From an uncultured bacterium (GTDB lineage: Bacteria > Patescibacteriota > Minisyncoccia > Phycocordibacterales > DATDWN01), in contig CAVSGX010000006.1 in assembly GCA_963727715.1 (NCBI GenBank), positions 12,632 through 76,631 of the forward strand: DNA of 64,000 bases, written 5' to 3'. Below, piece after piece: positions 10,363 to 64,000 of the stretch. Below the pieces are notes generated by a model that was given only the letters and a program-made list of their open reading frames with translations, was not told where the DNA came from and did not search any database. Position 1 is the stretch's first letter, and each line of letters starts with the position of its first letter. Both the position numbers and the translations under genes were made by a program.

Positions 10363-10366
10363 CAAA

Positions 10367-36644: not shown

Positions 36645-36915
36645 AGATCAAATAAAAGAATGGCAGGAGCTTGGTATCGTTGATGGTAAATTTAAGGTAA
36701 AAGATGTAGAAGATAAAAAATATGAGCATTTACCGGTAGACACAAAGTATTTTAAGGATTTAGAAATTGAAATTTTGTCTTTGTTTGACGATTTAGACAA
36801 TCAGTTAGATGGCTGGCTGATAAAAAGCGAAAATTATCAGGCGTTAAATACAATACTGCCGAAATTTAAAGAACAAGTACAAACAATATACATTGATCCG
36901 CCATTCAATTCTTGA
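36631..36915 (+). pseudogene. Type III R-M methyltransferase (Mod) N-terminal fragment, truncated after motif IV
   Basis: GWLIKSENYQALNTILPKFKEQVQTIYIDPPFNS* is the beta-class N6-adenine MTase N-terminus ending at DPPF. Downstream 36916..37970 is stop-riddled, but a degenerate motif I can still be read out of frame (VMDYFCRFGALVWLSAHKMKMKWIGVE, compare D.F.GSGTT...GR.wIGiE). Confidence 0.7.
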
Positions 36916-37972
36916 GGGATAGATTTTTACTATGCAGATCAATTATCAAAATAGCTAGTTGGACTTTCGTTAATTGATAATAGACCGAAAATTATAAGCA
37001 GTTTTCGAGAAAAGACAATTAATACTTATATAGTTGCATTTTGATTCCGAAGGAGAGTTACGCATAATTGATAATTATATTCTACGGCTTTACTGATCTT
37101 GATTTCAAAGTCGCATAATTAAATATCAGTTAATGAGATAGTTTTTAAATAATTTATTAATAAGTATCATGGTTATTTATTTTCAGAAAGCGATGAAATA
37201 ATGTGGCATTATGAAAGTATTATGGTACTAGGTCGAAAGACTATTTAGAAAGCACAGATACAATCACGATTTTTTATAGAAATGATCGAAAGACATACTT
37301 TATTTAAAACGAAATGAAGATATTGGCGAAACAAATGCTGATAAGATTGGAGAAAGTATATTGTAAATGAAAACGAGTCGTGGGAAATTACATCATGATG
37401 TTGATTTAAAAGGAATTGGATAAATGGATGAAAGAAAATGGCAGATCAACCAATGAAGATAAGATGTTGATTTATGTATTTTAAATACGCAACCATACGA
37501 AGATGTATGGGATATACAATACATAAGATCACGCCAAAGATAAAACAGAAAAGACTGGATATGACACTGCAAAAGCCAGAAGCTCTTATTGAAAGGATAA
37601 TTCGATGCGGTTTCATAATCCAGGACGATTTAGTCATGGATTATTTTTGTAGGTTCGGAGCACTAGTGTGGCTGTCTGCCCATAAAATGAAAATGAAATG
37701 GATTGGCGTAGAGAATTAGGCGAAGCATATTATGAGACATATGACACGATTAAGGTATTTTTAAGAAAAAATAGAAAGACGATTGTTGAAATATTGGAAA
37801 TAGTTTAGAGTCAAACTATATTACCGCATGTAAGACTGGTAAAGTTGACGCTTGAAGAGATTGGTTAGTGGCTAAAAGTCTGGAATATCAGACAAGGTTG
37901 AATATGCTGGTGGCGGATTTTTCAAGTATTATGAGCTTGAACAGTATGAGGATGCATTAAAAAATTGTAAAT

Positions 37973-38266
37973 ATGGCGACGGGTGATTTATTTAGTAAGA
38001 CAAGCGATAAAGCATATCAGGATTATGTATTTATGAAAGATGAAAAAATGCTTTCCGCTTTGGAAATAGATTACAAGAATAAAAAAGTGAGGGTAGATTT
38101 AAACAAGCTTTATCCCGATATTGATATTGCGGAAACACTATCAAACCTAACCGGAAAATGGATTAAGGCAATAAAAGACGGTGATGTGGAATTTACCGAT
38201 GGTAGCAAGATAAATACGAAAGAATTGGACTATAAAATTATCAAACCTTTAATTTGGTGGGAATAA
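37973..38266 (+). pseudogene. probable C-terminal remnant of the decayed mod gene
   Basis: 97-aa ORF whose stop is 1 nt before the res start; the position fits a Mod C-terminus; no motif. Confidence 0.3.
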
Positions 38267-38267
38267 C

Positions 38268-41196
38268 ATGAAGACCTATTTGCAATCAATCGTTGATGAC
38301 TTTTCTTTTGATAACTTGCCGGCAAAATGGCAGGATTTTGATTTTGTCAGATTTTCTTCCGATAAAACACTATTTGATTTTCAAAAGCAAGGTTTGCAGA
38401 ACGCGCTGAAAGCACTTTGGTTGTTTTATAAAGAGAAAAAAAGCAATAAGGAAGATTTTTTTGAACAATATAAGGCCAATGGATTTGAAACTAATTTTGA
38501 TTATGATTTAAGTCGTGAAAGAAAATCTGCCGGTCATCTTTTGGAATTTGATAAGGATTATCCGATTACGAACGAAAAAATTGCTTTCGCTCACTTCATC
38601 AACCGAATGAGTTTCTGGATGGCAACTGGCTCTGGCAAAACTTTGATTATCGTAAAGTTGATTGATTTGCTCGGACAGCTTATTCAAAGAAAAGAAATAC
38701 CGAAAAACGACATTCTTTTTTTGGCTCATAGAGATGACCTTTTAGAGCAATTTAGAAATCATGTAAATGAGTTTAACAGTTATAATTTTGAAACGAAAAT
38801 AAATTTGAAAAGTTTAAAAGATTATGAAAGTGTTAAGCGAGAAAATTCTTTGCCATTTGCGAAAAATGAAATAACTGTTTTTTATTACCGTTCTGATTTA
38901 ATTTCCGATGAGCACAAGGAAAAAATAGTCAATTTTAAAAATTACGACAATAGCGGCAAGTGGTACATCCTTTTAGATGAAGCTCATAAGGGCGACAAAG
39001 AGGATAGCAAACGACAGGTACTATATTCAATACTTTCAAGAAACGGTTTTCTTTTTAATTTTTCTGCGACATTCACAGACCCACGAGATTATGCAACATG
39101 TGTTTTTAACTTCAATTTATCTAAATTTATTGAGGAAGGTTATGGAAAACATATTTATGTATTCAAACCAATGTGAAGGTTTTCGGGACAAAACGATTTT
39201 GCTCCACTGAAAAGCAGAAAATTGTTTTGAAAGACGCTTATTTTGCAAACATATATCAATAAATATTTTGCGAGAGTCAGAAAAGAAGATAAGACACTAT
39301 ACCATCGACCACTACTTTTGACGCTAGTCAATTCGGTTGATACAAAAGAAGCCGACTTAAAATTATTTTTTTCAGAGCTGGAAAAAGTGGCAAAAAATAA
39401 AATAAGCTCAGGAACTTCTTAAAAAAGCTAGAGAAGAAGTTGATAGAAGATTTTGAAAATAATCCCCAGTATGAATTTGAGAGTATTAATTTTTCAGTTG
39501 ATAAAAAGATAATTGAAAAGATAGAGTATGGTGATATTTTGAAGCAAATTTTTAATGCGAAATCTCCGGCAAAATCGAGGTTTTAAAGATTCCGGGCAAT
39601 AAAAAGGAGATAATTTTCAAATTGCAAAGATCAGAAAAACCTTTCGGACTTATTAAGATTGGTGATATTTCTGGCTGGTTCAAGGAAAAACTTGAAGGTT
39701 ATGAAATCATTGAAAGTTTTGAAAATGAAAGTATTTTTAAAAAAATCAATCACGACGATTCGGAAATAAATATTTTAATGGGTTCTCGTGCTTTTTATGA
39801 GGGGTGGGATTCTAATCGTCCGAACATTATTTTGTTTGTGAATATCGGCGTGGGAAGCGATGCTAAAAAGTTTGTTTTGCAGTCAGTTGGACAGAGGCGT
39901 AAGGATTGAACCGCAAAAAAACAAACGGAAAAGGATTTTGAATTTATACAATGCGAAAGAGATAAAAGAAGAAATATTTAATAAAGTACGACAAAATATT
40001 ATGCCACTTGAAAGTTTGTTTATTTTCGGGACCAATGCAGAAAACCTTAAAGAGATTATCAAAGCCCTTAAAGAAGAAAAACAAGAAAAGGATTTAGGAC
40101 AAGAGTTTATTATCAATAAAGAAGCTGAAAAGCGATTATTGCTAATTCCGATATATAAAAAATCGGACAAAATATTTGCGGAAGAAAAAGAACCTCAAAA
40201 ATATGGAATTAACAAAGATGATTTTGATTTGGCCAAGTGAAATGTTTAATTATCTTGGCACAAAAATCGCGTTAACGAAATATGAATGTGATGTCAGGGT
40301 TGTTGAGAAAGCAAGCGAAAGTTTTGAAAAGCCAGATCAATATTTTGACTTTGAAGAAGCGAGGACAATTTCTGAGCCGGATTTGTTAGTGGATAGAATC
40401 ATTAAATTATTTTAGCGTTAGAGATAAAGAATTTGATAAATTTAAAAAACTAGAAAATGAAATTGTCCATTTCAAGAGAATAAAATTTAGCGATGGCGAA
40501 AAATATGAGCAAATAAAGAAAAAAATTGAGGAAATGAGACAATATCCTGAAAAACAGAAAGAACTTGATAACAATATGGAAAAATGCCAAGAGAAGAATT
40601 TGCCCGAAAACAAATAGTTTATTTGAGGCGCAAAAATTTGAATATAAAGGGAAAAATTAAAAATAAAATATATTCAAAATCATTATTATATTCCGCTTAT
40701 CGTTTCTGAAAATGAAAAAGTTGATTATTTAAACCACATTATTGATGTTCCTAGCGAAGTTAAATTTATTGAACAGCTTGAGGAGTATTTACAAAATGAA
40801 AATAATGTTTTTAAACAATTTGATTGGTGGATGTTTTCCAAACTAGACCAAACATTAGACGAGGTACATATTCCGTATTACAATCCAAAAGAAAACAATA
40901 TGGCTAGGTTTAAGCCGGACTTTATTTTTTGGATGCAGAAAGGAAATGAGTATGTAATTTTGTTTGTAGATCCAAAAGGAACAGAACATGCAGACGGATA
41001 TAGGAAAATTGATGGCTATTCGCGCATATTTGAAACTAGAGAAAGAAAAGAAAGCAGAGCATATCCGTTCAACGGCTTTAATATAAAAACAAAATTACTT
41101 CTGAAGCCAAAAAGAGGAATAGCTGAAACACTTGAGAATTATCGAAAATATTGGTTTGACAATTTTGGCGATTTTGCGACAAAGTTAAATAATTGA
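38268..41196 (+). pseudogene. Type III restriction endonuclease (Res), fragmented
   Basis: 38268..39176 is intact for 302 aa with helicase motifs (Q-like LFDFQKQ, Walker A MATGSGKT, DEAH ILLDEAHKG, motif III FSATF). Later motifs follow in shifted frames (39622..39909 EGWDSNRPNIILFVN; 39860.. QSVG-RGVRI motif VI). A C-terminal PD-(D/E)xK nuclease remnant (FKPDFIFW...VILFVDPKG) lies at 40831..41196. Confidence 0.7.
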
Positions 41197-41509
41197 TTTT
41201 GGCGGCGCGCCAGCTTCGCTGGCACAAAATTCGGCGGTGGCGGAAAAGCGAGGGCGGGCAAAAATTCCTTCCCCCCAACCCCCTTCCTTTTTGCCCGCCC
41301 GAGCTTAAAAGTTTTTCAAAATTCAGCGTTCGGATTTTCGCTAAAAAAAGTTCGGATTTCGTTCAGCGTTCGGAGCATAGAAATTATTTTGAGCAATATT
41401 GAGTATCTCATTGAACGGAGAACGCAATGAAATACAGGGTTTTTTACCATTCACAATACCCACATGAACCGGGAAAAAGTTGATTAAAATATTCCTACTT
41501 ATAAACGGT

Positions 41510-42373
41510 TTACAGTGGCACCACTTGACCTTTCGGGACACAAACTTTGTGAACCGGCTGATTGGCGATGAGTGGTCCTTCCACCATACATGAAGCTCCA
41601 TTTTGGCAATCGCTGTTTGTGTTGCATCCGGTTGTTTGACTTGGATTTGTAAATTTAAAAGTGGAGATTATTTGTTTCAATATTATCGGCTGATTTGTGT
41701 TTGTGGTCAGGCAGTCATTGTAGTTTTTTTGTTGTTCGATGTTTTCTGTCTCAATTGGTAGATAGACATCACAATTTGTTGTGCTTGTGTTTAAATTGAT
41801 GACCAAACATTTGTTATTTGTCACAGTGGCATAGTAATAGCTGTTGTATTGGTGATTCATTGCTACGTCGCTCGTTTGATACAAGCAATATGTGACATTG
41901 TTCACGGCTGATTTTTGTCCGGCGGGATTCCAATAATTTGAGTTGGAAAGATTACTTTTGATCGCGTTTATGTCGCCACCTGCCGATGCCTGGTCATTTA
42001 TGACTATGTTGTTTATGTTCGGACAGGCATTTGGGAAGACATTGTAATTGCAATCCCCGATCAACACTTTCGGCTGATGGCCTGAATCGAAAAAACCGGA
42101 TGGATATTGAAACTGAAATCCGTACTGACTATTTGTGTATATTTGCCAGCCGGTAGTTTGGTTGGTCGTGGTTGTGGCTTGGGTATTGTTTGTTAGTTGA
42201 TTGGTTGAAGTCTTGGCTTGCTGTTCGTTGCTTACTTTTGGTGTCGAAAAGTGTTGATAGACGGAGACTCCGCCAAAAGCAACGATCATTACAGCAGCGA
42301 TGATCAGAATACCAACCAAAATTGAAATTCCTTTGTTCATATCCTCCATTGTATCAAATTTGTTTCGAAACAT
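41510..42373 (-). CDS. secreted/surface protein, Thr/Asn-rich with Cys-rich C-terminus
   Basis: 287 aa; N-terminal TM/signal anchor (ISILVGILIIAAVMIVAFGG), low-complexity Thr/Asn region, C-terminal CNTNSDCQNGASC...VCVPKG. Confidence 0.45.
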   Translation of the reverse strand: MFRNKFDTMEDMNKGISILVGILIIAAVMIVAFGGVSVYQHFSTPKVSNEQQAKTSTNQLTNNTQATTTTNQTTGWQIYTNSQYGFQFQYPSGFFDSGHQPKVLIGDCNYNVFPNACPNINNIVINDQASAGGDINAIKSNLSNSNYWNPAGQKSAVNNVTYCLYQTSDVAMNHQYNSYYYATVTNNKCLVINLNTSTTNCDVYLPIETENIEQQKNYNDCLTTNTNQPIILKQIISTFKFTNPSQTTGCNTNSDCQNGASCMVEGPLIANQPVHKVCVPKGQVVPL

Positions 42374-48479: not shown

Positions 48480-50522
48480 CTACATAGAAATCGTAATATG
48501 TAAAGTGCTACCTATCATCATTCTGGCATCTATCACGGTCGCGCTAAGATCGGTGGCCATAACTGGGTTGAGGTCAATCTCTTTTATTTCAGGATGATGA
48601 ATGGCCAGTTCCGAAAGATTTACAATAATTTCGGCGAGCAAATCAAAATCAACCGACTTCTCGCCACGCAAACCTCGCAAAATTTCAATACCCTTTATTT
48701 CACTCATCATTTCCAAAGCTTCTTCTTTTTTGATCGGGGCGACACGCAGTGAAGTGTCTTTGATAGCTTCGGCTAAAATTCCACCGAGACCGAAAAGAAT
48801 TGTTGGGCCGAAAGTCTCGTCGCGCTTCATACCGATAATGACTTCCCTGCCGGAAACCATCGGTTGAATAAGCATACCGTCGATATGAACCCTCGGATTG
48901 TTGTGGCGAATAGTGTCCCAAGCTTTCTCGGCATCGTTTATTGTTTTTAAGTTTAAAATTATGGCGCCGGAATCTGTTTTGTGAACAATGCACGGCGACT
49001 CGGCTTTCATGGCAAAGTTTGTAAATTTCAACTTTTTCAAGATAGGCCCAAGCTCAAATTTTTCTTTAACCAAAATTCCGCTAAGCGGGATATTGTATTC
49101 GGCCAACAAGTCAAAAGTATTTTCAAAGTTCATCATTTTGATTTTTTGGTTAGCGTTTTTTACAAACTCCTGGTGGTTTTTGTGAAGACCGAAAGCCAGT
49201 GAGTCTAAGGCCGAAATGGCGTCTTCAGGAAAACTGAAATTAACCATTTTATTTTGTCGCAAAATTTTCAGGGCCGGGTCAATTTGCGATCCACCAAGAA
49301 AAACCGGAATAATCGGTTTCTTGTCGTGATACTTTTGAACCAACTCGGCTGTTTTTTCCGTCTCGGTCATCATTTGAGGCGTAACTAAAAGCAAAATAGC
49401 GTCGCTGTTTTTTTCTTCCGACAAAATTTCCAAAGCTTTTTCGAACCTGTCGGCTAAAGCGTCGCCGATAATATCCACAGGGTTTCCTACCGCGGCCATT
49501 GGGGGCAAAACCGCTCGCAATTTTTCTTTTGTTTTTTCTGGAATATTGGCCAATGAAAGAGAATATGATGTGTCCACTAAATCAGCCACTATCACTGATG
49601 GTCCGCCACCATTTGTCAAAATACAGATTTTTTGCAGTGGTTTGTAAAGGCCTGTTTGAAAAAGTTTGGCCATATCGAAAAACTCATGAATAGAATTTAC
49701 ACAAATGACCCCGGCTTGTTTGCAAGCCGACGAGAAAACAGCGTCGTCCGGGGCCAAAGAACCGGTGTGAGACGAGACGGCTTTAGCTCCACCGACGCTT
49801 CGGCCGGCTTTGAGGACGATGATCGGTTTTGTTTCAGTTATTTTTTTAGCTAATTCTATAAAAGCTGGTCCATCGGAAAGTTTTTCCAAATAAATCAAGA
49901 TGGATTTCGTTTCCTGATCTTCTGCCAGAAATCTCAGAAAATCAATTTCCGTCAAATTGGCTTCATTACCCAAACTTATGAATTTGGAAAAACCGACATT
50001 TTCGGAAAGAGCCATGTCCAAAAGGGCGGCGCCTAAAGCGCCCGACTGTGACAGAAAAGCGATGCTCCCCGTCGGAGGATTATCGGGAGCAAATGTGCAA
50101 TTAAAGTTTTCCTGCGTGGAGATTGTGCCTAGACAATTTGGTCCAAGTAGATTGATTCCATTTTGTTTGGCGATTTCAGCTATTTTTTTCTCAAGTTCTT
50201 CGCCGGACGGACCGATTTCTTTAAAACCGGCAGAGATGACAATGACATTTTTAATTTTCTTTTCGGCGCATTCTGACATAATTTTCGGCACCAAATTGGA
50301 ACGAACGGCGATGATAGCCAGATCAACCGGCCCCTTGATGTCTAGAACAGATAAACAAGCAGCAACACCCAAAATTTTTTTCTCGGAAATGCTGACGGGG
50401 AAAACAACCCGTTTGCTTCCGCCTAGCAGGTTTTTCATCAGAGCGAATCCAACTTTGCTTTCGTCGCTTGAAGCGCCGATCACAGCTACTGATTTTGGAT
50501 TGAAAAAATTTTCAAGATTCAT
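48480..50522 (-). CDS. acetyl-CoA synthetase (ADP-forming), fused alpha/beta (NDP-forming acyl-CoA synthetase)
   Basis: 680 aa; CoA-binding N-domain (VAVIGAS...), succinyl-CoA-synthetase-like ligase domains and C-terminal ATP-grasp domain. Confidence 0.8.
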   Translation of the reverse strand: MNLENFFNPKSVAVIGASSDESKVGFALMKNLLGGSKRVVFPVSISEKKILGVAACLSVLDIKGPVDLAIIAVRSNLVPKIMSECAEKKIKNVIVISAGFKEIGPSGEELEKKIAEIAKQNGINLLGPNCLGTISTQENFNCTFAPDNPPTGSIAFLSQSGALGAALLDMALSENVGFSKFISLGNEANLTEIDFLRFLAEDQETKSILIYLEKLSDGPAFIELAKKITETKPIIVLKAGRSVGGAKAVSSHTGSLAPDDAVFSSACKQAGVICVNSIHEFFDMAKLFQTGLYKPLQKICILTNGGGPSVIVADLVDTSYSLSLANIPEKTKEKLRAVLPPMAAVGNPVDIIGDALADRFEKALEILSEEKNSDAILLLVTPQMMTETEKTAELVQKYHDKKPIIPVFLGGSQIDPALKILRQNKMVNFSFPEDAISALDSLAFGLHKNHQEFVKNANQKIKMMNFENTFDLLAEYNIPLSGILVKEKFELGPILKKLKFTNFAMKAESPCIVHKTDSGAIILNLKTINDAEKAWDTIRHNNPRVHIDGMLIQPMVSGREVIIGMKRDETFGPTILFGLGGILAEAIKDTSLRVAPIKKEEALEMMSEIKGIEILRGLRGEKSVDFDLLAEIIVNLSELAIHHPEIKEIDLNPVMATDLSATVIDARMMIGSTLHITISM

Positions 50523-50665
50523 TTATCCGCACACTAACATTACCATCGCTTTTCTATTCTGCTTTGGAATATTTGTGTTATTTATATTTATTATTAAATT
50601 CGACATTTTATTTTGATGTTCACTGAAAAAGCAGAATAATGGCAATGTTAGTGTGCGGATTTATT
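50523..50665. repeat. solo inverted-repeat hairpin element related to the GIY-YIG element termini
   Basis: termini ttatccgcacactaacattaccat / atggcaatgttagtgtgcggat(aa) form a perfect 24-nt inverted repeat; inner second IR ttctattctgcttt/aaagcagaataa; fills the acd-porB intergenic space exactly. Confidence 0.75.
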
Positions 50666-51443
50666 TGTACAATTCTTCCTCAAATGTTGACTTCTCGACT
50701 TGATAAAAAATGCCAAGAGGAACTTTGTCGCTGACCTCGGAAACTTTTTCCATCGCCGTTTTCAAATCGGTTTTTGGAAAATCTTCCGAGATCCAATAGA
50801 TCCGTTCTTTGAAATAATCTCTGGTATCAAAAAATGTGATGCATGGCTGAATAATGTCCACAAAAGAAAAACCTTTGTGAGCAATCGCCTCCCCCATTAT
50901 TTTTTCCGTGCCAGCGATGTCTCCGGCGTATGTCCGAGCCACGAAAGTCGCGCCGGCGGAAAGCAAAAGCAAAAGTGGATTGATCGGTTCCTCAATACTG
51001 CCAAATGGCGTTGATTTTCCTTTGAAACCTTTCGGGCTGACCGCGTCAAACTGGCCGGTGGTTAGAGCAAAAATACGGTTGTCGTGCACAAACAAATTTA
51101 CGTCGGAATTTCTTTTGGCAGCGTGGATCAAATGTTCTAGCCCTTCGTCGTATGAGTCGCCGTCGCCGGAAAAACCGATAATGGTCAGCGAAGGATTAGC
51201 TATTTTGGCGCCGGTCATAGATGGGATCAACCGCCCGTGAAGCGAGGTGAAAGAATTGAGATTCAAATAATCGGAAATTTTACCATGGCAACCAATGCCG
51301 GCAAATGTGGCAATATTTTCCGGTTCCAATTTTCCTTCAGTCACCAAATCGGAAATAACTTTACGGAAAGCTACCAAAATCTGCGAGTTTGGACAACCCG
51401 GGCACCATGTTATTTTTGCTGTAGTTTGTAAATTTAGTTCCAT
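50661..51443 (-). CDS. 2-oxoacid:ferredoxin oxidoreductase beta subunit (TPP-binding)
   Basis: 260 aa; WCPGCPNSQI N-terminal motif and TPP-binding GDG...N region. Confidence 0.85.
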   Translation of the reverse strand: MELNLQTTAKITWCPGCPNSQILVAFRKVISDLVTEGKLEPENIATFAGIGCHGKISDYLNLNSFTSLHGRLIPSMTGAKIANPSLTIIGFSGDGDSYDEGLEHLIHAAKRNSDVNLFVHDNRIFALTTGQFDAVSPKGFKGKSTPFGSIEEPINPLLLLLSAGATFVARTYAGDIAGTEKIMGEAIAHKGFSFVDIIQPCITFFDTRDYFKERIYWISEDFPKTDLKTAMEKVSEVSDKVPLGIFYQVEKSTFEEELYK

Positions 51444-51444
51444 T

Positions 51445-51760
51445 TATCCCGCACACTAACTCTCATTTTGATTCGCCAGTGTGTCTTTTAATCTTAATTT
51501 TAATTGATTCCTTGCCTGACCACGTAATTTTAACATTTTTTCTCTTCTTCGCGAATCAGTTCCTACTTCATATGCTTCGTAATATATAAGTTTGTAAGGT
51601 TTCTTATTTTTTGTTGATTCAACCCCACCTTTATTATGTTCTATGATTCTACGTTTGAGATTATTTGTCGAACCGATGTAAAGCTGACCATATTTTTTAC
51701 TTTTTATCACATAGACATAGAACATAATGAAATGAGAGTTAGTGTGCGGATTTATTTTAA
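51445..51760. mobile_element. GIY-YIG gene cassette bounded by inverted repeats
   Basis: ttatcccgcacactaactctcatt (51445) and its reverse complement aatgagagttagtgtgcggat (51740) flank the GIY-YIG ORF; same terminal sequence family as 50523..50665. Confidence 0.7.
51456..51725 (-). CDS. GIY-YIG nuclease-domain protein (UPF0213/YhbQ-like)
   Basis: 89 aa; YVYVIKSKKYGQLYIGSTNNLKRRIIEHN matches the GIY-(10-11)-YIG...R...E...N catalytic motif. Confidence 0.8.
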   Translation of the reverse strand: MFYVYVIKSKKYGQLYIGSTNNLKRRIIEHNKGGVESTKNKKPYKLIYYEAYEVGTDSRRREKMLKLRGQARNQLKLRLKDTLANQNES

Positions 51761-53464
51761 AATTTTGTTAATTTGTTCAGAGAGTTCAGTCGGATCAAAA
51801 GGTACAGAATCATATTTCAAAATTTTATCAACAATTTCAATCCCTGTTTTTTCCATAATCAATCCAGCCAATTGGGCGTTGTGATTCCCCTCCACACAAA
51901 TTATTTTTTTAGCGCCAACCAATTCTTTTTTTATTTTTTCTGTGTCAAAGGGCTCTAACCAAACGATTTGCAAAAATTTTGCCGGCTTTTCAAAATATTT
52001 TGACGCTTCCAAGACTGCGCTTTTTGTTGAGCCGAAAAAGACAATTACATTTTCGCTACCTGTGTCGCCGTACATTTTGACTGTCTCCCTACTTTGCATT
52101 TCTGTCTCGATGGTTTTTCCTTTTGCGAATCTTTTGTCAAGCATTGCTTTGACTTCGGCTGGTTTGTCCGTTGTAATTCCATATTCGTCATGTTCGTAGC
52201 TCGTCACTTTAACCACGGCGTTTTTCGTACCCGGGAAAGCCAAAGGTGAGACACCGTCTGGAGTGATTTGATAGCGAGCATAATTCTCCCCTGCATCTTT
52301 GGCGATTTTACCACTTTCCGCCGAAACTGATTTTTTATCAATATCGCAAGTCATCATGTGTTCGGACAAAATTTTATCCAAGAGAACAATCACTGGTGTT
52401 TGAAATTTCCATGCCAAATTCAGAGATTCGGCCCCGGCCAGAAAACTTTCTTCCGGATCGCCAGGAGCGAGAACAATTCGTGGAAACTCGCCGTGGCCTC
52501 CATGCAAAGCAAAACGCAAATCGGATTGCGACGAATGTGTGGGCAAACCGGTGGCTGGCGCTTGGCGTTGCGAAACAGCCACAACAAGTGGCAACTCGGC
52601 ACCACCGGCGAAAGACAAAGCTTCCTGCATCAGAGCGAAACCGCCTGTGGCCGAGCCAACGGCCACGCGTTTGCCAGCGTAGGCCATGCCGAGCGCCATG
52701 TTAATAACTGAAATCTCATTTTCCGGCTGAATGACTTTGAGACCATCTTTTTTTTGTTGTGTGGCGAGATAATGCAAAATGCTGGATGACGGCGTCATCG
52801 GATATGCAATATAGAAATTCAAACCCGCACTTTGCAAACCTTTGGCGAAAGCAGTGTTGCCGTCGAGAAATTCTCCATGCACTTCTCCAGGCTCAAGTTT
52901 TTTACTATGTCGGAAATTTATTTTTTGTAAATACCAGTAACCAACCTCGGCCAGCTTCTCATTTATTTTCGGCATTTTGTCAGCAAAAACCATTTTCAAA
53001 ATTTCCGCCATTTTTGGAAGTGGCAAATCCAAAAGATAGCACAACGCGCCAAGAGCGACGGAATTTCTGGTAATAGCCGGTGCCGAAATCTCTGCCACCG
53101 CGCTTTTCATCGGCACCAGCACGGCGTTTTCTCCGAGTGTTGCGATATCACTGGGTTCAAACTCATCGGCAAAAACAATACCGTTTGAGGCAAGCTCACC
53201 GAGGTGCAGTTTGACCGTTTCTTCGTTTAGCGCGATCAGAACATCGAGTGGCGCGTGGTCGCACCAGACTTTTTGTTTGGAAAAAGTTAGTCGTGTGAAG
53301 TTGTGTCCACCGCGAATGAGCGATGGATAGTCGGTTGACAGGTAGACTTCATAGCCGAGATCACGCAAAAGTAGTCCCAAGTTTGATCCGGCTTCCATCA
53401 CCCCATCGCCGGCCGCTCCACCTATGCCGATTGTGAAAATATTATTGTCTAAATTTTGGGTCAT
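51752..53464 (-). CDS. 2-oxoacid:ferredoxin oxidoreductase alpha subunit with fused N-terminal gamma domain
   Basis: 570 aa; N-terminal gamma-type domain (IGIGGAAGDGVMEAGSNLG), then alpha domains; immediately upstream of the beta subunit. Confidence 0.8.
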   Translation of the reverse strand: MTQNLDNNIFTIGIGGAAGDGVMEAGSNLGLLLRDLGYEVYLSTDYPSLIRGGHNFTRLTFSKQKVWCDHAPLDVLIALNEETVKLHLGELASNGIVFADEFEPSDIATLGENAVLVPMKSAVAEISAPAITRNSVALGALCYLLDLPLPKMAEILKMVFADKMPKINEKLAEVGYWYLQKINFRHSKKLEPGEVHGEFLDGNTAFAKGLQSAGLNFYIAYPMTPSSSILHYLATQQKKDGLKVIQPENEISVINMALGMAYAGKRVAVGSATGGFALMQEALSFAGGAELPLVVAVSQRQAPATGLPTHSSQSDLRFALHGGHGEFPRIVLAPGDPEESFLAGAESLNLAWKFQTPVIVLLDKILSEHMMTCDIDKKSVSAESGKIAKDAGENYARYQITPDGVSPLAFPGTKNAVVKVTSYEHDEYGITTDKPAEVKAMLDKRFAKGKTIETEMQSRETVKMYGDTGSENVIVFFGSTKSAVLEASKYFEKPAKFLQIVWLEPFDTEKIKKELVGAKKIICVEGNHNAQLAGLIMEKTGIEIVDKILKYDSVPFDPTELSEQINKILK

Positions 53465-53479
53465 TAAAATATAATTTGG

Positions 53480-53675
53480 TAAATTTTGAATTTCAAAATT
53501 TCATCGAGTGCAAATGTTTTCCGGAGCATACGCAGGCGAGGAGCTGGTTTTGTCAATGACCTGAGCAAAGCGAAGGCTCTTGACAAATCCGAGCCGAGGA
53601 CCGAGTAAACTTTTCGCTGGAAAAGTTTACGTCTCCGGAAAACTTTTGCCGAGATGGGTTTTGAAATTCAAAATC
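53480..53675. repeat. palindromic intergenic element, copy 3 of 3
   Basis: core catacgcaggcgaggagctggttttgtcaatgacctgagcaaagcgaaggctcttgacaaatccgagccgaggaccgag is about 95% identical to copy 2, within its own terminal inverted repeat (attttgaatttcaaaa...gttttccggag / ctccggaaaac...ttttgaaattcaaaat); lies in the divergent porA/SDR promoter region. Confidence 0.8.
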
Positions 53676-59846: not shown

Positions 59847-60435
59847 TTTTCTCTTCCTTCTTTGCGCTCTTGGCCGTTGAAACGGTAGGGGCGTGACCTA
59901 CTCACGCTCCACTACAGGCACTGGCGTGCCCTCAACGGAACGTTTTCAGGCACGCCCGTTCTGGGCGTGCCTCGAATGTGTCCGTTGAGAGAAAGTGCCA
60001 GTTTCGTAGTGGACAGCAGCCGAAGCCGCAAATCTGTTGTTGGTAATATTTTACATTGGTTTTCTTTGCGAACGCTCAAAATTTGTCTTCATTGTTGATG
60101 GTTGGCGTACCGTTCTTCAAAATCGCAATGGTGCGGCGGCGGATGCTGCGTGAAAAACAATGCCTCTTGATTGGTACGTTTGGGGAAATGACCCGCCATG
60201 GAAATCGCCGTCACCGGATACAATCCTTGCCCCAGCTTTGCAACCTCAGCTTCATCGAACCGACCTGCCTGAAAGTCTGTGCCCATCCCAAATTCCGGCT
60301 GTTTTGTTAATTCACCAGCGCCAAAGAACCTGTGTCAGAGGAACAATACGCCGATTCCGAATAATAAATCTTGAGGGAATTCATGTATTCTGTCTCACCA
60401 TATTTTGCTAAATACTCACCGTGGGTTGCAGGACG

Positions 60436-60768
60436 GATTTAGGGAACCCCTGCCCATGAGCCAGTGAGGAACCTGCTCTCCCGGCCCTCCCTCTACAAGC
60501 GTGTGGAGGGGAGGGAGTTTAGGGAACCCCTGCCCATGAGCCAGTGGGGGGCCTCCTCTCCCGCGGCCCTCCCCTCCACAAGTTGTGGAGCGGAGGGAGT
60601 TTGGCGAACCCCTTCCCATGAACCAGTGGGGAACCTCCTCTCCCCGCCCCTCCCCTCCACAAGTGTGTTGAGAGGGGAGGGAGTTTGGGAACCCCCGGCC
60701 ATGAACCGGTGAGGAACCTTCTCTCCCCCGGCCCTCCCCTCCACAAGTGTGTGGAGGGGAGGGAGCAG
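60436..60768. repeat. tandem array, about 4.3 copies of a ~78-bp unit with embedded hairpin
   Basis: unit gggagtttagggaacccctgcccatgagccagtg.ggaacct.ctctccc.gccctcccctccacaagtgtgtggaggggag; units are about 80-90% identical; each holds the palindrome ctcccctccacaag(t)gtgtggaggggag. Confidence 0.8.
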
Positions 60769-60798
60769 AGGAACGCGAAGAATTTTGTCGTGCGCCCG

Positions 60799-61822
60799 TC
60801 ATCGTGTTTTAATCGCGTTAAGTTGCGGGGGCGGGTTTCCAGGCGTCGGCTTCGAGTTCGAAGAGGAGGTCGTCGCGGCAGATGCCGCAGCGGGCGGAGA
60901 CGGCGGGAAGGGAACGGAGGTCGCGGGCGGCACACCAGGCGGGGAATTCGGACTGGCCGGCGGGGTCCTTGAAGTAGGCGGTTGCGCGGGTGATGTCGGC
61001 AAAATCAAAGCCGCGGAGGCGAGGATGACTTCAATGACTTCCATTGTAGTCTGGATTTGCCGGCTCAGGTTGCCGAGCCATAGTGTCTGGCCCCCGGGCG
61101 CAACGCTGGCGGTGCCGGAGATCAAGAGGCGGCGGCCATGCAGGGAGGAGATTTCCATGGCGCGGCTGAAGGAGCTGCCGTAGGCGGTGGCCGGACATTG
61201 CAAGGGGGAGTGGACTTGGGCGATCTGCACGGTGGAGTTGAGGGGTTGAAGCGCCCAAGCGCCGGCGACCAGGGCGGCGCCGGCAGGGTTCTTTGCTGAA
61301 ATGCCGGTGCTGGCGGGCAGGGAGCCGCCGCGGAATTTGACGCGGGAGTAGGCCTCGGTTCTGGCCTGGTTGAAGGGGCCGTACGAAGAGAGGAGGTCGT
61401 CGAGGTAAAAACCAGGTGCGCACGACGTCGCCGAGGGAGAAGTTGGCTCGGGCGAGGGCTGTTTCCAAGTTGGCCAGGGTTTGGCGGAATTGGTCGGGGC
61501 GGGAGGCGGACCCAGGCTGCGGCCCCAAGCCGCCGAGCAGGCAATATCGAATGGCGCCGTCTTCAAAGACGGAACCGACAACGCGGCCGTTGAGGGTGAC
61601 GGGGTGAACGCGGCCGGCGGTGAAAGCGAAGGCCTGCAATCCGGCGATTGGCTCGTTGTTGCAGGCCGCGCCTTCGACCCAGGTGACTGGCCAGTCAATT
61701 TTTCCGAAGACCCGGCGCATGGCATCTTCGGCGGCCGGCCAGGCGCTGAGTGAACCGAAGGCCATCAATTTGACGAGCGTCGAGGAGGAGTCTTTCAAGG
61801 CGAGGGCGAGCCGGCTGAACAT
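60799..61822 (-). pseudogene. tandem RidA (YjgF/UK114) domain protein split across three frames
   Basis: RidA domain 1: DQFRQTLANLETALARANFSLGDVVRTWFL, continuing in another frame as FYLDDLLSSYGPFNQARTEAYS...PAGAALVAGAWAL. RidA domain 2: HGRRLLISGTASVAPGGQTLWLGNLSRQIQTTMEVIEVILASAA, continuing in a third frame as GDITRATAYFKDPAGQSEFPAWCAARDL... Frame switches fall at short homopolymers (~61395, ~60995). Confidence 0.55.
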
Positions 61823-62021
61823 TTGGATAATCCCTTCGCCAGGCAGGGGCTTGACTGTGAAACAGAATTCCGAGCCGCGGGACAGATTGCCGACGGCGGT
61901 TTTTGGACCTGTGATGGAAGCAGGCTTGAGGGATGGGATAATAAGAACGACGGTGGCCTAGACGGCGGCTGTCCGGGAGCGGTTACGAGGGGCGGCGGGT
62001 GCGCGCAGAAGTTGCGCAGGG

Positions 62022-62092
62022 TTGGAGTGGTGGAGTGGTGGAGTGGTGGAGTGGTGGAGTGGTGGAGTGATGGAGTGATGGAGTGGTGGGTG
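62022..62092. repeat. tandem decamer repeat (ggagtggtgg, about 7 copies)
   Basis: read directly in sequence; produces spurious VVEWW-repeat ORFs on both strands. Confidence 0.85.
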
Positions 62093-62615
62093 GCTGGACT
62101 TGACCATCTGCCCATTACTCCAATGCTCCAACACTCCGTTGGGTTTCTGCCGGGAATGGCTTTGCGCGTCATAGAAAAATCATTTGTTGGCTTGATTTAC
62201 CTTGATTTGGCTTGATTTTCAGCCTTCACAGGCTCTGGTTTTTGGGGTGATTTTGAGGGGATCGCGGCGGCTCCCGGAAGAAAGCAGCCTCAAAGAGCGT
62301 TCGGCGGGACGCCGACGGCGGTGATCGGGACGGTCGCGCTCCCAATCCCCAAGCCCCAATCCCCAATGTGCAATGCGCAAACGGTAATGCGGAATGGCGG
62401 GGAAATCCGGCCTTTGAGCCGTTGGCATCCGATATATTGCCTCCTTTCATCACGGGTGAAATAATAGCGGGCAAGCTGGAGTTGTCAACGGGGAAATGAA
62501 AAATATTTTGGGGTGATGATGATAAGGTACTGGCATAGGCAGCGCACAGGGTGGAGAGGTGGGATAATGGGCGGCGCGGCAGCACCGCCCTGCCTGGATT
62601 GCCATATTCGGCATA

Positions 62616-64000
62616 TCAGCCTTTGGATGGCGCGGTCGGCAGGCGGAGGGTGAAGGTGGCGCCGGCGCCGGGCAGGCTGGCGGCTTCGAGGGTGCCGCCG
62701 TGCGCCTCGACAATGGCCTTGGAAATAGCCAGGCCCAGGCCGGTGTGGCCGCCGGTGCCGGAGCGGGCTTTGTCGGCGCGGTAGAATCGCTCGAAGATGC
62801 GGGGCAAGTCCTCTGGGTCAATTCCCGGGCCGGTGTCGCTGACGCTCAAGAAGAGCCCCGTCTCGTTTGCCGCCGGTGATGCGGACCTCGCCGGATTCGC
62901 GGTTGTATTCGATGGCGTTGCTGAGGAGGTTGGTGATGACCTGCCCATGCGTTCGGGGTCGCCGACGCATGGCAAGGGCGGGAGTGCGGAAAGGACTTTC
63001 AGGCGGCGCGCTTCGGCGAGCGGGGCCATCAATTGTTCGCAGTCGCTGACGGTTTGGGACAAGTCGAAGGGGACGCGTTTGAGGGATTCCTGGCCGGCGT
63101 CGAGCCTGGCGAGTTCGAGGAGGGATTCTGTGAGCTTGCGCATTCGTTGTGCAGCGCGGAGGCATGTTTCGACGGTGGCGCGATATTCCGCGGCGCCGCG
63201 CTCGCGGTTGAGGATGGTCTGAGTCTGGGCGAGCATGACGGTGATGGGAGTGCGCAATTCGTGGGCGGCGTCGGAAGTGAATTGTTGTTGCTGTGCGAAG
63301 GCGGCTTCAAGGCGGGCGAAGGTGGAATTAAGAACGGCCGCCAGACGGCCCAGTTCGCTGTCGGTGTCGGCGGCGCTGATGCGCTGGGAAAGGTCGCCGG
63401 CGGCGATTTTGACGGCGGTGGAGCTGATGCCTTCGATGGGCCGGATGGCGCGGGAGGCCACACCACCAACCGCCGGTCAAGCCGAGCAACAGGACGATGC
63501 CGCCGGCGCCGGCCAGTTCCCACGCCAGGAGGCGCAGGCCGGCGAGTTCCTCTGCAAGGGAGCGACCGAGCAGGACGACGCCCCTGCCCGGCGTGGCGCG
63601 GGCAAGTTCGCGGAAGACGCCGCGCATTTGGGGTTCTGGCGGCGGTTGGGCGGCTCCGGCGGCAGCGGCAGCGGCGGCGGCGGCGGCGGGTCCGGCGGTT
63701 GCGGCGGCGACAGCGGCTTTGGTTGCGGCGGCGACAGCGGCGGCTCCGGCGGCGGCGGCGGCGGCAGGATAGGGCACATCGCGCGGCGCGGCTTCGGAGC
63801 GGGCCACTTCCTTGCCGTCCGCAAAGACCACATAGTAAAAAGAATTGGTCTCGCTGCCGAACAGGCCCATCTGGTCAGGTGCGAGATAGAATAGAAATCC
63901 CGGGGTGGGCTGGCCAGGAAATCCCCACTCTCCCGGCGTACCGCCATTGGTAAAATCAGCGCCCCAGATCACCACCACCGCCCCAACCGCCCCAATCACC
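62616..64000 (-). CDS. sensor histidine kinase (partial, continues past the window end; one internal frameshift)
   Basis: HAMP (GDLSQRI...ELGRLA), HisKA H-box AAHELRTPITV, HATPase_c (DTGPGIDPEDLPRIFERFYRAD...GLGLAISKAIVEAHGG) in 62616..63461. The N-terminal sensor part with a poly-Ala/GCG-repeat tract continues in a different frame (63328..63999), switching near 63465. Confidence 0.65.

What the first reader, a model, noticed from the sequence alone, without database searches (positions are those of the whole stretch)
50523..51760. GIY-YIG (UPF0213-type) gene bounded by inverted repeats between porB and porA, with a matching solo inverted-repeat hairpin between acd and porB
The 89-aa GIY-YIG ORF (51456..51725) is flanked by ttatcccgcacactaactctcatt and its reverse complement (51445/51740).

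The neighbouring intergenic space (50523..50665) is filled exactly, from the acd start codon to the porB stop codon, by a 143-bp hairpin. Its termini are the same sequence family (ttatccgcacactaacatt...). It looks like a cargo-less derivative.

Both intergenic gaps of the acd-porB-porA operon are therefore occupied by related elements. This points to a mobile GIY-YIG cassette with a preferred intergenic target. It could also affect transcript processing of this central fermentation operon.
Basis: seen in the sequence. Interest (0 to 1): 0.65.

Follow-up and report, generated by a model that had tools for sequence, protein, structure and literature searches.

The report
Tiny palindromic GIY-YIG mobile element
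Two small palindromic mobile DNA elements, one carrying only an 89-residue GIY-YIG nuclease gene and one carrying no gene, are inserted exactly at the stop/start junctions of a fermentation operon in a Patescibacterium, and they belong to a widespread, so far undescribed branch of the recently discovered Ssn nuclease/hairpin-repeat systems that shows the marks of real transposition.

Summary
On the minus strand the order is porA, a 304-nt inverted-repeat cassette with an 89-aa GIY-YIG ORF, porB, a 134-nt gene-less hairpin, then acd. The shared 14-mer occurs only at these four arms in 64 kb.

It is a mobile-element family, not a regulatory palindrome.
- About 60 of 81 homologous GIY-YIG genes, mostly Patescibacteria, sit inside the same kind of inverted repeat. 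The outer core CC[C/G]CACAC is conserved and the inner stem covaries.
- The closest syntenic por operons lack both insertions.
- Exactly 4-bp direct repeats flank 28 of 81 elements, against 5.5 expected. In the window the repeat is TAAA, so a TAAATG stop/start junction was duplicated and both reading frames stayed intact.
- A contig with more divergent por genes carries both elements at 88% nucleotide identity while porB is 69% identical (dS 0.40 versus saturated).

The nuclease is a distant relative of Ssn, the site-specific single-strand DNA nucleases flanked by hairpin repeats. Its repeats do not match the published Ssn motif.

The solo hairpin shares termini and duplication with the cassette, but its interior is homologous to hairpins that accompany another GIY-YIG subfamily elsewhere. 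It is therefore not a simple deletion derivative.

The transposition chemistry is inferred, not shown.

The parts
51447..51750 (-). Autonomous-type element (cassette): terminal inverted repeats enclosing the GIY-YIG ORF. It is 304 nt, including one extra base at 51448.
   Evidence: Inverted repeat. Element boundary set by the 4-bp direct repeats. The same architecture is seen in about 60 of 81 homologous loci. The site is absent from the closest por orthologues.
51456..51725 (-). GIY-YIG nuclease ORF, 89 aa, single domain, Ssn-like.
   Evidence: Pfam PF01541, E 4.6e-14. The catalytic-type residues Y3/Y5, Y16, G18, R26, H30 and E62 are invariant or nearly so. hhalign against SRM-flanked Ssn-like proteins gives 98% probability, E 3.7e-14. 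The AF2 model has pLDDT 87 and a GIY-YIG core resembling Slx1 and UPF0213. dN/dS against L085 is about 0.19.
51730..51750 (-). 5' (porA-side) terminal inverted-repeat arm of the cassette. It reads T-CCGCACAC-TAACTCTCATTT on the minus strand and ends 4 nt before the ATG.
51447..51468 (-). 3' (porB-side) terminal inverted-repeat arm of the cassette. It overlaps the last codons and the stop codon of the ORF.
51751..51754 (-). Upstream copy of the 4-bp direct repeat TAAA (minus strand). It contains the porA stop codon TAA.
   Evidence: Strain contig L001 shows a clean TAAA...TAAA pair.
51443..51446 (-). Downstream copy of the direct repeat TAAA. Its last A is the A of the porB ATG. It is displaced by one base in the window because of the extra G at 51448.
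50526..50659 (-). Gene-less (non-autonomous) palindromic element, 134 nt. It has outer arms, an inner stem TATTCTGC/GCAGAATA, an 8-nt asymmetric bulge (GAAAAGCG) and an AT-rich loop.
   Evidence: It is homologous over its full length to hairpins in L085, L027, L030, L073 and L080, with compensatory changes in the stem. It is absent from the closest por orthologues.
50660..50663 (-). Upstream copy of the direct repeat TAAA flanking the solo element. It contains the porB stop codon.
50522..50525 (-). Downstream copy of the direct repeat TAAA flanking the solo element. Its last A is the A of the acd ATG.
51752..53464 (-). Host gene: 2-oxoacid:ferredoxin oxidoreductase alpha(/gamma) subunit (porA).
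   Evidence: Pfam and NCBIfam.
50661..51443 (-). Host gene: 2-oxoacid:ferredoxin oxidoreductase beta subunit (porB).
48480..50522 (-). Host gene: ADP-forming acetyl-CoA synthetase (acd).
53468..53496 (-). Promoter-like site (TTGAAA-17-TATATT) directly upstream of the porA ATG. It is the likely source of the transcript that runs through both elements.
   Evidence: Consensus scan only. No promoter-like site lies within either element on the minus strand.

Best explanation
Both insertions belong to one family of very small palindromic mobile DNA elements that is widespread in Patescibacteria.

Structure of an element (shown):
- Terminal inverted repeats of about 20 bp.
- Outer 10-12 bp conserved: 5'-(C/T)CC(C/G)CACAC(C/T)AA.
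- Inner part varies but stays complementary.
- A 4-bp target-site duplication on each side.

Two forms exist (shown):
- The gene-carrying form is about 285-310 bp. It holds a single ORF for an 85-90-aa single-domain GIY-YIG nuclease, filling the space between the arms.
- The gene-less form is about 100-140 bp, with the same termini.

In the window both forms were inserted at TAAATG stop/start junctions of the porA-porB-acd operon. Duplicating TAAA kept the upstream stop codon and the downstream start codon intact.

Inferred steps, by analogy with Ssn nucleases and supported by near-exclusive Watson-Crick pairing of the arms and a Slx1-like fold:
- The nuclease recognises the conserved base of the stem when the palindrome folds out of DNA, either as a single-stranded hairpin or as a cruciform.
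- It cuts at the element/flank boundary.
- A staggered 4-nt cut at the target, followed by host repair or ligation, completes movement.
- Gene-less copies are served in trans by the resident nuclease.

Inferred consequences:
- The element has no promoter of its own, so it depends on host read-through transcription.
- In RNA the long stem occludes the nuclease start codon.
- The folded stem brings the host stop and start codons back together, which would limit polar effects on the operon.
For: Family-wide architecture:
- 740 homologues were found, mostly 84-90 aa. There are 3075 clusters at 50% identity with E <= 1e-10.
- In 81 loci, about 60 genes are enclosed by an inverted repeat that ends 0-8 nt before the ATG and begins about -13 to +4 nt from the end of the stop codon.
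- Over 53 anchored loci, stem positions -1 to +18 are 68-100% Watson-Crick paired. The core is invariant. Compensatory changes occur at positions 2, 8 and 11-18, and G:T pairs are few.

Insertion and empty sites:
- The closest PorB orthologues (86% and 84% aa) are syntenic. Their gaps are 1 or -4 nt (porA|porB) and 17 or 2 nt (porB|acd), against 308 and 138 nt here.
- Most of about 80 further por loci have gaps of -11 to +17 nt.

Target-site duplication:
- Identical 4-nt direct repeats occur in one exact register in 28 of 81 elements. Shuffling gives a mean of 5.5 and a maximum of 11 in 500 trials.
- There is no signal at other lengths or in other registers.
- The sequences are diverse: TTTA, TAAA, CCTA, CCTG, CCAG, CGCG, CAAG, CGTG and others.

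Younger than the host genes:
- L085 carries both elements at the same junctions. Nucleotide identity is 88.7% (cassette) and 87.9% (hairpin, loop included), against 69% for porB and 73% for the porA 3' end.
- pS is 0.31 (dS 0.40) for the nuclease gene, against 0.79 (saturated) for porB and 0.67 for porA.
- Identity steps up sharply at the element borders, and the flanks show no co-conversion.

Other points:
- Purifying selection acts on the nuclease: dN 0.074, dS 0.40.
- No larger element with the same termini was found in 1.6 Mb of sampled loci. Sizes are bimodal, 120-150 nt and 270-320 nt.
- Termini of cassette and solo copies in the same locus are more alike than between loci: 11.7 versus 10.3 of 14 positions, permutation p about 2e-4.
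- Relation to Ssn: tblastn hits are alpha-proteobacterial GIY-YIG genes flanked by canonical SRM repeats. BLASTP gives 38% identity, E 6e-15. hhalign gives 98% probability.
- Ssn biochemistry and its IS-like architecture are described in PMC11893778.
- Structural neighbours are UPF0213 protein BH0048 (top hit), the structure-specific nuclease Slx1 and I-TevI.
Against: - No biochemical activity is known for this clade.
- GIY-YIG enzymes hydrolyse DNA and are not known to catalyse strand transfer, so insertion would need host functions or another factor.
- Only about a third of elements have perfect 4-bp repeats. A recurrent flank pair, TTCA...TAAA (11 loci), is not a direct repeat.
- Several counted elements are orthologous insertions, so the number of independent events is nearer 20.
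- I found no genome with several near-identical copies. The source genome outside this window could not be searched, and the window holds only these two copies.
- Shared occupancy of the same two junctions in the window and in L085 could reflect one old insertion plus unusual constraint, rather than transfer.
- The published Ssn repeat motif does not match these termini.
- Assignment to CDD family cd10448 could not be tested.
Confidence: 0.75

Rival explanations
1. The palindromes are MITE-like elements moved by an unlinked conventional transposase. The GIY-YIG gene is only a passenger, or an addiction or defence cargo.
For: Terminal inverted repeats plus a short target-site duplication are the classical signature of DDE-transposase elements. 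Gene-less copies are common. GIY-YIG enzymes have no known strand-transfer activity (general knowledge).
Against: No element of 0.5-4 kb with these termini carries any gene other than GIY-YIG in 1.6 Mb of sampled loci. The ORF fills the element to within 0-8 nt of the arms, and its last codons lie inside the arm. The core motif follows the GIY-YIG gene across distant lineages. Cassette and solo termini match within a locus.
Confidence: 0.1
2. A classical free-standing homing endonuclease gene. The nuclease cuts the empty allele, and the gene is copied in by homologous recombination. The inverted repeats are incidental or serve only expression control.
For: GIY-YIG is a homing-endonuclease fold, with weak PHROG and NCBIfam matches. 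The same junctions are occupied in two diverged genomes, and the elements are younger than their flanks. Free-standing homing genes often sit between conserved genes (general knowledge).
Against: Homing leaves no target-site duplication, yet a 4-bp duplication is seen. Flanks next to the elements show no co-conversion; identity falls to 53-70% immediately outside. The 89-aa protein has no DNA-binding domain to read a 14-40-bp host site. Insertion contexts are very diverse, and gene-less copies with the same ends exist.
Confidence: 0.07
3. The hairpins are primarily host regulatory RNA structures of the por-acd operon, for example processing sites, stabilisers or devices for translational coupling. 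The GIY-YIG gene lodged in one of them secondarily.
For: Both elements lie inside one transcription unit, and the only promoter-like site is upstream of porA. The stems are very stable as RNA. The hairpin places the host stop and start codons side by side (sequence).
Against: The closest orthologous operons work without them, with gaps of -4 to 17 nt. The same termini occur at unrelated sites such as tRNA genes, downstream of rpsG, and upstream of pfk and ftsK. The arms avoid G:T pairs, which an RNA helix would tolerate. There is no Rfam family; only sub-threshold chance hits appear. This genome does not use Shine-Dalgarno sites, so the G-rich end is not a ribosome-binding site.
Confidence: 0.05
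4. A domesticated Ssn-type system. The nuclease and its hairpins are now kept by the host to act on single-stranded DNA, for example to restrict or modulate incoming DNA as in Neisseria, and they no longer move.
For: Ssn in Neisseria meningitidis modulates natural transformation through its repeats (PMC11893778). The nuclease is under purifying selection. Copy number in this window is low.
Against: The patchy distribution among close relatives, the target-site duplications and the young age relative to host genes all indicate recent movement. Two repeats in 64 kb is far too sparse for a genome-wide marking system like NTS, which has hundreds of copies. This reading is not exclusive of the best explanation.
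Confidence: 0.1

Closest known systems
Ssn nucleases with NTS/SRM hairpin repeats (Chenal et al. 2025, Nat Commun, PMC11893778; CDD cd10448)
   Same: A single-domain GIY-YIG protein of about 90 aa. Its gene is bracketed by its own kind of hairpin-forming repeat. Extra gene-less repeat copies lie elsewhere. Homology is detectable to SRM-flanked members (38% identity, hhalign 98%). The core CC[C/G]CAC fits the stem half (YYVSBRH) of the degenerate SRM. An IS-like layout was already noted by those authors.
   Different: The repeat family is different: the full SRM pattern matches at 1 of 82 loci. Here the two arms of one long palindrome enclose the ORF, rather than a complete short hairpin on each side. 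The C-terminal third of the protein differs, and the W..W...NP.W.DL tail is absent. Copy number is low. This analysis adds target-site duplications, empty sites and age discordance, which the Ssn paper did not report. Host lineage is mostly Patescibacteria.
REP/BIME repeats with RAYT (REPtrons) and IS200/IS605 elements
   Same: A small nuclease gene is associated with palindromic repeats that are read as folded DNA. Gene-less repeats outnumber or accompany the gene. Clusters of hairpins of several subtypes occur (L002, L047).
   Different: Those use HUH/Y1 enzymes with a covalent intermediate and leave no target-site duplication. Here the enzyme is GIY-YIG and a 4-bp duplication is present.
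Bacterial MITEs, for example Neisseria Correia elements
   Same: They are 100-150-bp elements with terminal inverted repeats and a short target-site duplication, inserted between genes and co-transcribed with them.
   Different: Correia and most MITEs derive from, or depend on, DDE transposase elements. Here the only associated protein is an 89-aa GIY-YIG nuclease nested inside the full-length form.
Free-standing GIY-YIG homing endonucleases (I-TevI, T4 Seg proteins)
   Same: GIY-YIG catalytic core. Selfish genes lodged between conserved host genes. Patchy distribution.
   Different: Those are 200-300 aa with a separate DNA-binding domain, spread by recombination with co-conversion, and have neither terminal inverted repeats nor a target-site duplication.
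GIY-YIG-encoding insertions in rRNA genes of CPR bacteria (Tsurumaki et al. 2024, PMC11270868)
   Same: Small GIY-YIG ORFs sit in non-intron insertions in the same bacterial radiation. [quoted passage not shown]
   Different: Their ends and duplications were not described, and I did not test whether they are the same element family.
Slx1 and UPF0213 (YhbQ, BH0048) GIY-YIG proteins
   Same: They are the nearest solved folds: BH0048 is the top Foldseek hit and Slx1 superposes at rmsd 2.1 A over 55 residues. UPF0213 proteins match by sequence with E 1e-4 to 1e-3. Slx1 is a structure-specific nuclease acting on branched DNA.
   Different: Those are housekeeping genes without flanking repeats.

Membership tests
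GIY-YIG nuclease superfamily | GIY-YIG domain with the conserved Tyr...Tyr-x-Gly, Arg and Glu residues. | tested here: met
   Pfam PF01541, E 4.6e-14, above the gathering score. Y3, Y5, Y16, G18, R26 and E62 are invariant and H30 nearly so across 26 homologues.
GIY-YIG nuclease superfamily | beta-beta-alpha-beta core fold. | tested here: met
   The AF2 model has pLDDT 87, with E2-9, E15-20, H23-32, E44-52 and H58-88. The best PDB neighbours are BH0048, Slx1 and I-TevI, but all Foldseek E-values are above 1e-3.
Ssn family (site-specific ssDNA nucleases) | Single-domain GIY-YIG protein of about 90-100 aa with no extra DNA-binding domain. | tested here: met
   89 aa with one Pfam domain spanning residues 1-71, followed by a single C-terminal helix.
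Ssn family (site-specific ssDNA nucleases) | Membership of CDD cd10448, or BLASTP E < 1e-10 with at least 75% coverage against N. meningitidis SsnA (CAX49033.1). | not testable with these tools
As a proxy, comparison with three SRM-flanked alpha-proteobacterial homologues gives BLASTP E 6e-15 but only 66 of 89 residues aligned (74%). hhalign gives 98% probability over 65 columns. The C-terminal region does not align.
Ssn family (site-specific ssDNA nucleases) | Gene flanked by repeats matching the degenerate SRM motif HGTCWYN(0-2)YYVSBRHN(0-5)WNVSBRGN(0-2)RNCYNB. | tested here: not met
   The regex was validated on the NTS sequence. It finds no match within 500 nt of the window gene, and matches at 1 of 82 homologous loci. 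The same regex finds 1-5 matches around the alpha-proteobacterial controls.
Ssn family (site-specific ssDNA nucleases) | Gene bracketed by hairpin-forming inverted repeats of its own kind, in the general sense. | tested here: met
Ssn family (site-specific ssDNA nucleases) | Cleaves single-stranded DNA only, next to its repeat. | not testable with these tools
   This needs biochemistry.
Transposable element with terminal inverted repeats (IS/MITE sense) | Terminal inverted repeats that define the ends. | tested here: met
Transposable element with terminal inverted repeats (IS/MITE sense) | Target-site duplication of fixed length. | tested here: met
   4 bp in a single register, in 28 of 81 elements against 5.5 expected. 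TAAA flanks the window's solo element, and also the cassette in strain contig L001.
Transposable element with terminal inverted repeats (IS/MITE sense) | Empty orthologous sites. | tested here: met
   L086-L091 and most of 80 por loci.
Transposable element with terminal inverted repeats (IS/MITE sense) | Several copies at different sites within one genome. | tested here: inconclusive
   Several loci hold a cassette plus 1-3 solo copies within 20 kb, and one assembly has two cassettes on two contigs (L003, L008). No whole genome could be scanned, and no near-identical copies were seen.
Transposable element with terminal inverted repeats (IS/MITE sense) | Encodes a recognised transposase. | tested here: not met
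   The only ORF is a GIY-YIG nuclease. No transposase lies between matching ends anywhere in the sampled loci.
   UPF0213 structures match only weakly (E 1e-4 to 1e-3). The profile match to YhbQ is 85% probability, against 98% for SRM-flanked Ssn-like proteins.

The most novel reading that the evidence does not exclude
These are autonomous DNA transposons of about 300 bp, smaller than any known insertion sequence. Their only protein, an 85-90-aa GIY-YIG nuclease, acts as the transposase equivalent. It would make structure-specific cuts at the base of the element's extruded hairpin or cruciform, with host ligation or repair doing the rest. That would make Ssn-type GIY-YIG enzymes a new mechanistic class of mobility enzyme. 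It would also explain the origin of the Ssn repeat families in many bacteria.
Probability: 0.35. Interest if true: 0.9.

Novelty: new variant of a known kind. Interest (0 to 1): 0.7.

Why it matters
Ssn nucleases were described in 2025 as site-specific single-strand DNA cutters whose genes look 'IS-like', but no evidence of movement was given. This Patescibacterial branch supplies that evidence in sequence form: defined ends, a 4-bp target duplication, empty sites, and elements younger than their host genes.

If the nuclease itself drives movement, three things follow:
- It would be the smallest self-contained mobile DNA known.
- It would be a new kind of mobility enzyme.
- Each lineage would offer a natural nuclease/recognition-hairpin pair for single-strand DNA tools.

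It also shows how a streamlined genome tolerates insertions inside an essential operon. Insertion at a TAAATG junction with a 4-bp duplication preserves both reading frames. A perfect palindrome may keep the stop and start codons adjacent in the folded transcript.

Tried and rejected
1. The G-rich 3' end of the element supplies a Shine-Dalgarno site for the downstream gene. Rejected: only 3 of 46 long ORFs in the window have any such motif, and many look leaderless.
2. A known RNA family. Rfam gives only sub-threshold plant miRNA-precursor hits, as expected for any long hairpin.
3. A canonical Ssn repeat. The SRM regex does not match.
4. A defence or phage family. PADLOC and PHROGs give only weak partial GIY-YIG motif matches.
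5. An internal promoter in the solo hairpin. A TTGCCA-17-TATAAA arrangement exists in copies from other genomes, but the -10 element is not kept in the window copy and the scan finds none on the minus strand. Not pursued.
6. Looking up one exact protein seen on 22 contigs (P0104) to find multi-site copies. All places were the same locus with variable neighbours, so it was uninformative.
7. A search for larger elements with the same ends found none.
8. The third 'core-like' hairpin in the window (33251-33300) is a different sequence, CCCTCACC..., and not part of the family.
9. The supplementary files of the Ssn paper are not held, so the SsnA sequence could not be obtained.
10. The source genome is not among the species representatives that were scanned, so genome-wide counting of the motif was impossible.
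Full report
**1. What is in the window**

The region is one minus-strand gene string:
- porA, 51752-53464 (2-oxoacid:ferredoxin oxidoreductase alpha subunit, TIGR03710)
- an 89-aa GIY-YIG ORF, 51456-51725 (PF01541, E 4.6e-14)
- porB, 50661-51443
- acd, 48480-50522 (ADP-forming acetyl-CoA synthetase)

The GIY-YIG ORF is enclosed by a perfect 20-nt inverted repeat, 51449-51468 and 51730-51749. The porA-side arm ends 4 nt before the ATG. The other arm contains the last three sense codons and the stop codon.

The 138-nt porB-acd spacer is almost entirely one hairpin, 50526-50659. Folded as RNA its minimum free energy is -46.2 kcal/mol with z = -7.3.

The 14-mer ATCCGCACACTAAC, allowing up to 2 mismatches, occurs only at the four arms in 64 kb. 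The expectation is 0.29.

**2. The inverted repeat is a property of the gene family**

- The protein has 740 detectable homologues, almost all 84-90 aa and mostly from Patescibacteria/Paceibacterota.
- A full-library profile search finds 3075 clusters at 50% identity with E <= 1e-10.
- I fetched 80 genomic loci from species-representative genomes.
- In about 60 of 81 loci the gene sits inside the same kind of inverted repeat.

I anchored 53 loci on the core CC[C/G]CACAC:
- Stem positions -1 to +18 are 68-100% Watson-Crick paired.
- Positions 0-7 are essentially invariant in sequence.
- Positions 2 and 8 switch between C:G and G:C, and between T:A and C:G.
- Positions 11-18 show three or four pair types each.
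- G:T pairs are rare. This argues for a constraint on DNA pairing, or on copying one arm from the other, rather than on an RNA helix.

Element sizes are bimodal:
- 270-320 nt with the gene
- 120-150 nt without it
- a few shorter elements

**3. Evidence that these are insertions**

The closest PorB orthologues are L086 (86% aa) and L089 (84% aa). They lie in syntenic loci: hydrogenase, SDR, porA, porB, acd. Their junctions are tight: 1 nt or a 4-nt overlap between porA and porB, and 17 or 2 nt between porB and acd. Among about 80 further por loci from metagenomes, most gaps are -11 to +17 nt.

Some relatives carry other palindromes at these junctions. These include canonical Ssn-type repeats in L115, L147 and L154. 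Such junctions are therefore generally permissive sites in these compact genomes.

**4. Target-site duplication**

I placed the element boundary one base outside the core. In that register the four flanking bases on the two sides are identical, as direct repeats, in 28 of 81 non-redundant elements. Shuffling left and right flanks gives a mean of 5.5 and a maximum of 11 in 500 trials. Other lengths and other registers show no signal.

The repeats are diverse: TTTA, TAAA, CCTA, CCTG, CCAG, TTGA, CGCG, CAAG, CGTG, TGTG and others. Allowing for orthologous insertions, about 20 events are independent.

In the window:
- The solo element is flanked by TAAA...TAAA.
- The cassette is flanked by TAAA...TAAA in the near-identical strain contig L001. 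In the window itself one extra G at 51448 shifts the right copy.

In both cases the upstream copy contains the host stop codon, and the last A of the downstream copy is the A of the next ATG. The pre-insertion sites were therefore TAAATG junctions. The duplication explains why each element 'fills' the gap exactly from stop codon to start codon.

At tRNA genes the element end overlaps the acceptor-stem sequence. The 4-bp repeat (CCTA, CCTG, CGCG) sits next to a natural sequence that resembles an element terminus, so the tRNA end is regenerated.

**5. The elements are younger than the genes around them**

Contig L085 has both elements at the same two junctions. The identities between the window and L085 are:

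| Segment | Identity | Synonymous difference |
|---|---|---|
| PorB | 74% aa, 69% nt | pS 0.79 (saturated) |
| PorA 3' end | 73% nt | pS 0.67 |
| Cassette | 88.7% nt | pS 0.31 (dS 0.40), nuclease gene |
| Solo hairpin, AT-rich loop included | 87.9% nt | not applicable |

Por operons that are more similar to the window's than L085's is lack the elements. Identity rises and falls sharply at the element borders, and the flanks show no co-conversion. This pattern fits movement of the elements themselves. It does not fit recombination-based homing or plain vertical descent, although an old insertion under unusual constraint is not strictly excluded. dN/dS of about 0.19 shows that the nuclease is kept functional.

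**6. The solo hairpin**

It shares with the cassette the outer 14-17 nt and the TAAA duplication, but nothing internal.

Its interior is homologous over its full length to hairpins in L085, L027, L030, L073 and L080. The shared features are:
- the outer stem
- the inner stem TATTCTGC/GCAGAATA
- an 8-nt asymmetric bulge (AAAAAGCT-like)
- compensatory changes in the stem (GCCAT/ATGGC, GTCAT/ATGAC, TCCGT/ACGGA, GCCGT/ACGGC)

In L027, L030, L073 and L080 the hairpin lies beside, not around, a GIY-YIG gene of a different 84-aa subfamily, just downstream of rpsG. It is therefore a separate gene-less lineage, not a deletion product of the neighbouring cassette.

Its termini in the window and in L085 match the resident cassette (TCCG[C/T]ACACTAAC) rather than the CCCGCACACTTAA found elsewhere. 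Across loci, cassette and solo termini are more alike within a locus than between loci. This is what trans-recognition by the resident nuclease would predict. The sample is small, at 15 pairs.

**7. Relation to known systems**

A literature search points to the Ssn family (Chenal et al. 2025). Its features are:
- GIY-YIG proteins of about 94 aa, assigned to cd10448
- cleavage of single-stranded DNA next to a hairpin repeat (NTS/SRM)
- genes usually flanked by such repeats in an 'IS-like' layout

Results of the comparison:
- tblastn of the window protein against plasmids finds alpha-proteobacterial GIY-YIG genes. Their flanks carry textbook SRMs (CGTCATCCCCGCGAAGGCGGGGATCCAG), and one lies between sufB and sufC.
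- Similarity to these is significant but limited to the catalytic core: 38% identity with E 6e-15, and hhalign 98%.
- The C-terminal helix differs.
- The published SRM pattern does not match the termini here.
- The AF2 model (pLDDT 87) is a GIY-YIG core plus one long helix. Its best solved neighbours are BH0048, the structure-specific nuclease Slx1 and I-TevI.

I therefore file this as a new variant of the Ssn-type nuclease/hairpin kind. I do not file it as a demonstrated Ssn family member.

**8. Mechanism: what is shown and what is inferred**

Shown:
- defined ends and a 4-bp duplication
- empty orthologous sites
- age discordance between the elements and their host genes
- exclusive association with a conserved, selected GIY-YIG gene
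- no other candidate enzyme between matching ends in 1.6 Mb of sampled loci

Inferred:
- The nuclease recognises the conserved stem base in folded DNA and cuts at the boundary.
- A 4-nt staggered break at the target, plus host ligation or repair, completes insertion.
- Gene-less copies move in trans.

The main difficulty is that GIY-YIG enzymes only hydrolyse DNA, so the joining step is unexplained.

At the RNA level, also inferred:
- The element has no promoter, and its upstream neighbour is co-oriented in 53 of 68 loci where this could be scored.
- The stem, and a second pairing between the start region and the I-E-H-N codons, would mask the nuclease start codon in read-through transcripts.
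- The folded palindrome would bring the host stop and start codons together again.

**9. Verdict**

The finding is real, and its interpretation is essentially right. It uncovers a large, apparently undescribed family of miniature palindromic elements with an Ssn-like GIY-YIG nuclease as their only gene. Interest is 0.7. Novelty: new variant of a known kind. The boldest reading is that GIY-YIG is the sole mobility enzyme of the smallest autonomous transposon; I give that about 0.35 probability.

Noticed in passing
window 60001-64000: GC content jumps to 0.60-0.64 from about 0.40 in the rest of the window, and upstream regions of the ORFs there are GC-rich. This could be an assembly chimera or foreign DNA at the contig end.
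   Followed up: no
window 36001-42000: A low-GC stretch (0.32-0.35) with strongly positive GC skew (+0.16 to +0.27), unlike its surroundings.
   Followed up: no
whole window, for example 53468-53496 upstream of porA: Only 3 of 46 long ORFs have a Shine-Dalgarno-like motif. Many have a TATAAT-like box 5-10 nt before the ATG, which suggests widespread leaderless or SD-independent initiation in this organism.
   Followed up: partly
window 51630-51645 and 51716-51731: A 16-nt inverted repeat, 94% complementary, pairs the nuclease start region (TTATGTTCTATG) with the codons of the conserved I-E-H-N motif. ATG:CAT and TTY:GAA complementarity holds at 73-100% per position (G:T allowed) in 71 homologues. 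It may sequester the start codon, but coding constraints confound the test.
   Followed up: partly
window 33251-33300: A 48-nt hairpin, CCCTCACCAGATTTGT...ACAAATCTGGTGAGGG, in an intergenic region. It only superficially resembles the element core and was judged unrelated.
   Followed up: partly
L115 (porB-acd gap), L147 (both por gaps), L154 (both por gaps): Other Patescibacterial por operons carry canonical Ssn SRM/NTS-like hairpin pairs (GTCATTCCCGCGAAGGCGGGAATCC) at the same junctions. Others carry unrelated long AT-rich or G-rich palindromes. Stop/start junctions of this operon are recurrent landing sites for palindromic elements.
   Followed up: partly
L027, L030, L073, L074, L078, L080 (about 10260-10400 in the 20-kb loci): An 84-aa GIY-YIG subfamily, not enclosed by an inverted repeat, lies with its hairpin immediately downstream of, and convergent with, ribosomal protein gene rpsG (uS7) in several genomes. 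L047 shows tandem arrays of two hairpin subtypes, resembling BIMEs.
   Followed up: partly
solo hairpins of two subtypes (window 50526-50659; L074 10265-10400; L002 9013-9147): The two arms carry the same three blocks, but in order A-B-C on one arm and A-C-B on the other. Two mutually exclusive inner pairings (B:B' or C:C') are therefore possible in every subtype despite different sequences. The meaning is unknown.
   Followed up: partly
L017, L019, L054, L062 (tRNA-Gly 3' ends); L028, L051, L060, L064, L081 (tRNA 5' ends): Cassettes inserted in tRNA acceptor-stem sequence regenerate the tRNA end from their own terminus and leave a duplicated fragment. This suggests that targets resembling an element end are favoured.
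   Followed up: partly
L067 1463-1751: A cassette with intact inverted repeats but a truncated 40-aa ORF. It appears to be a decaying copy.
   Followed up: no
L082 (Azospirillum lipoferum plasmid AZO_p3, 255506-255799): A canonical SRM-flanked Ssn-like gene sits between sufB and sufC, inside an operon. This parallels the por-operon insertion here.
   Followed up: no
hits (for example P0250, P0260, P0277, P0304): Many profile hits are 200-480 aa with the GIY-YIG module at the N-terminus. They could be real fusions, or gene calls that read through into the downstream host gene.
   Followed up: no
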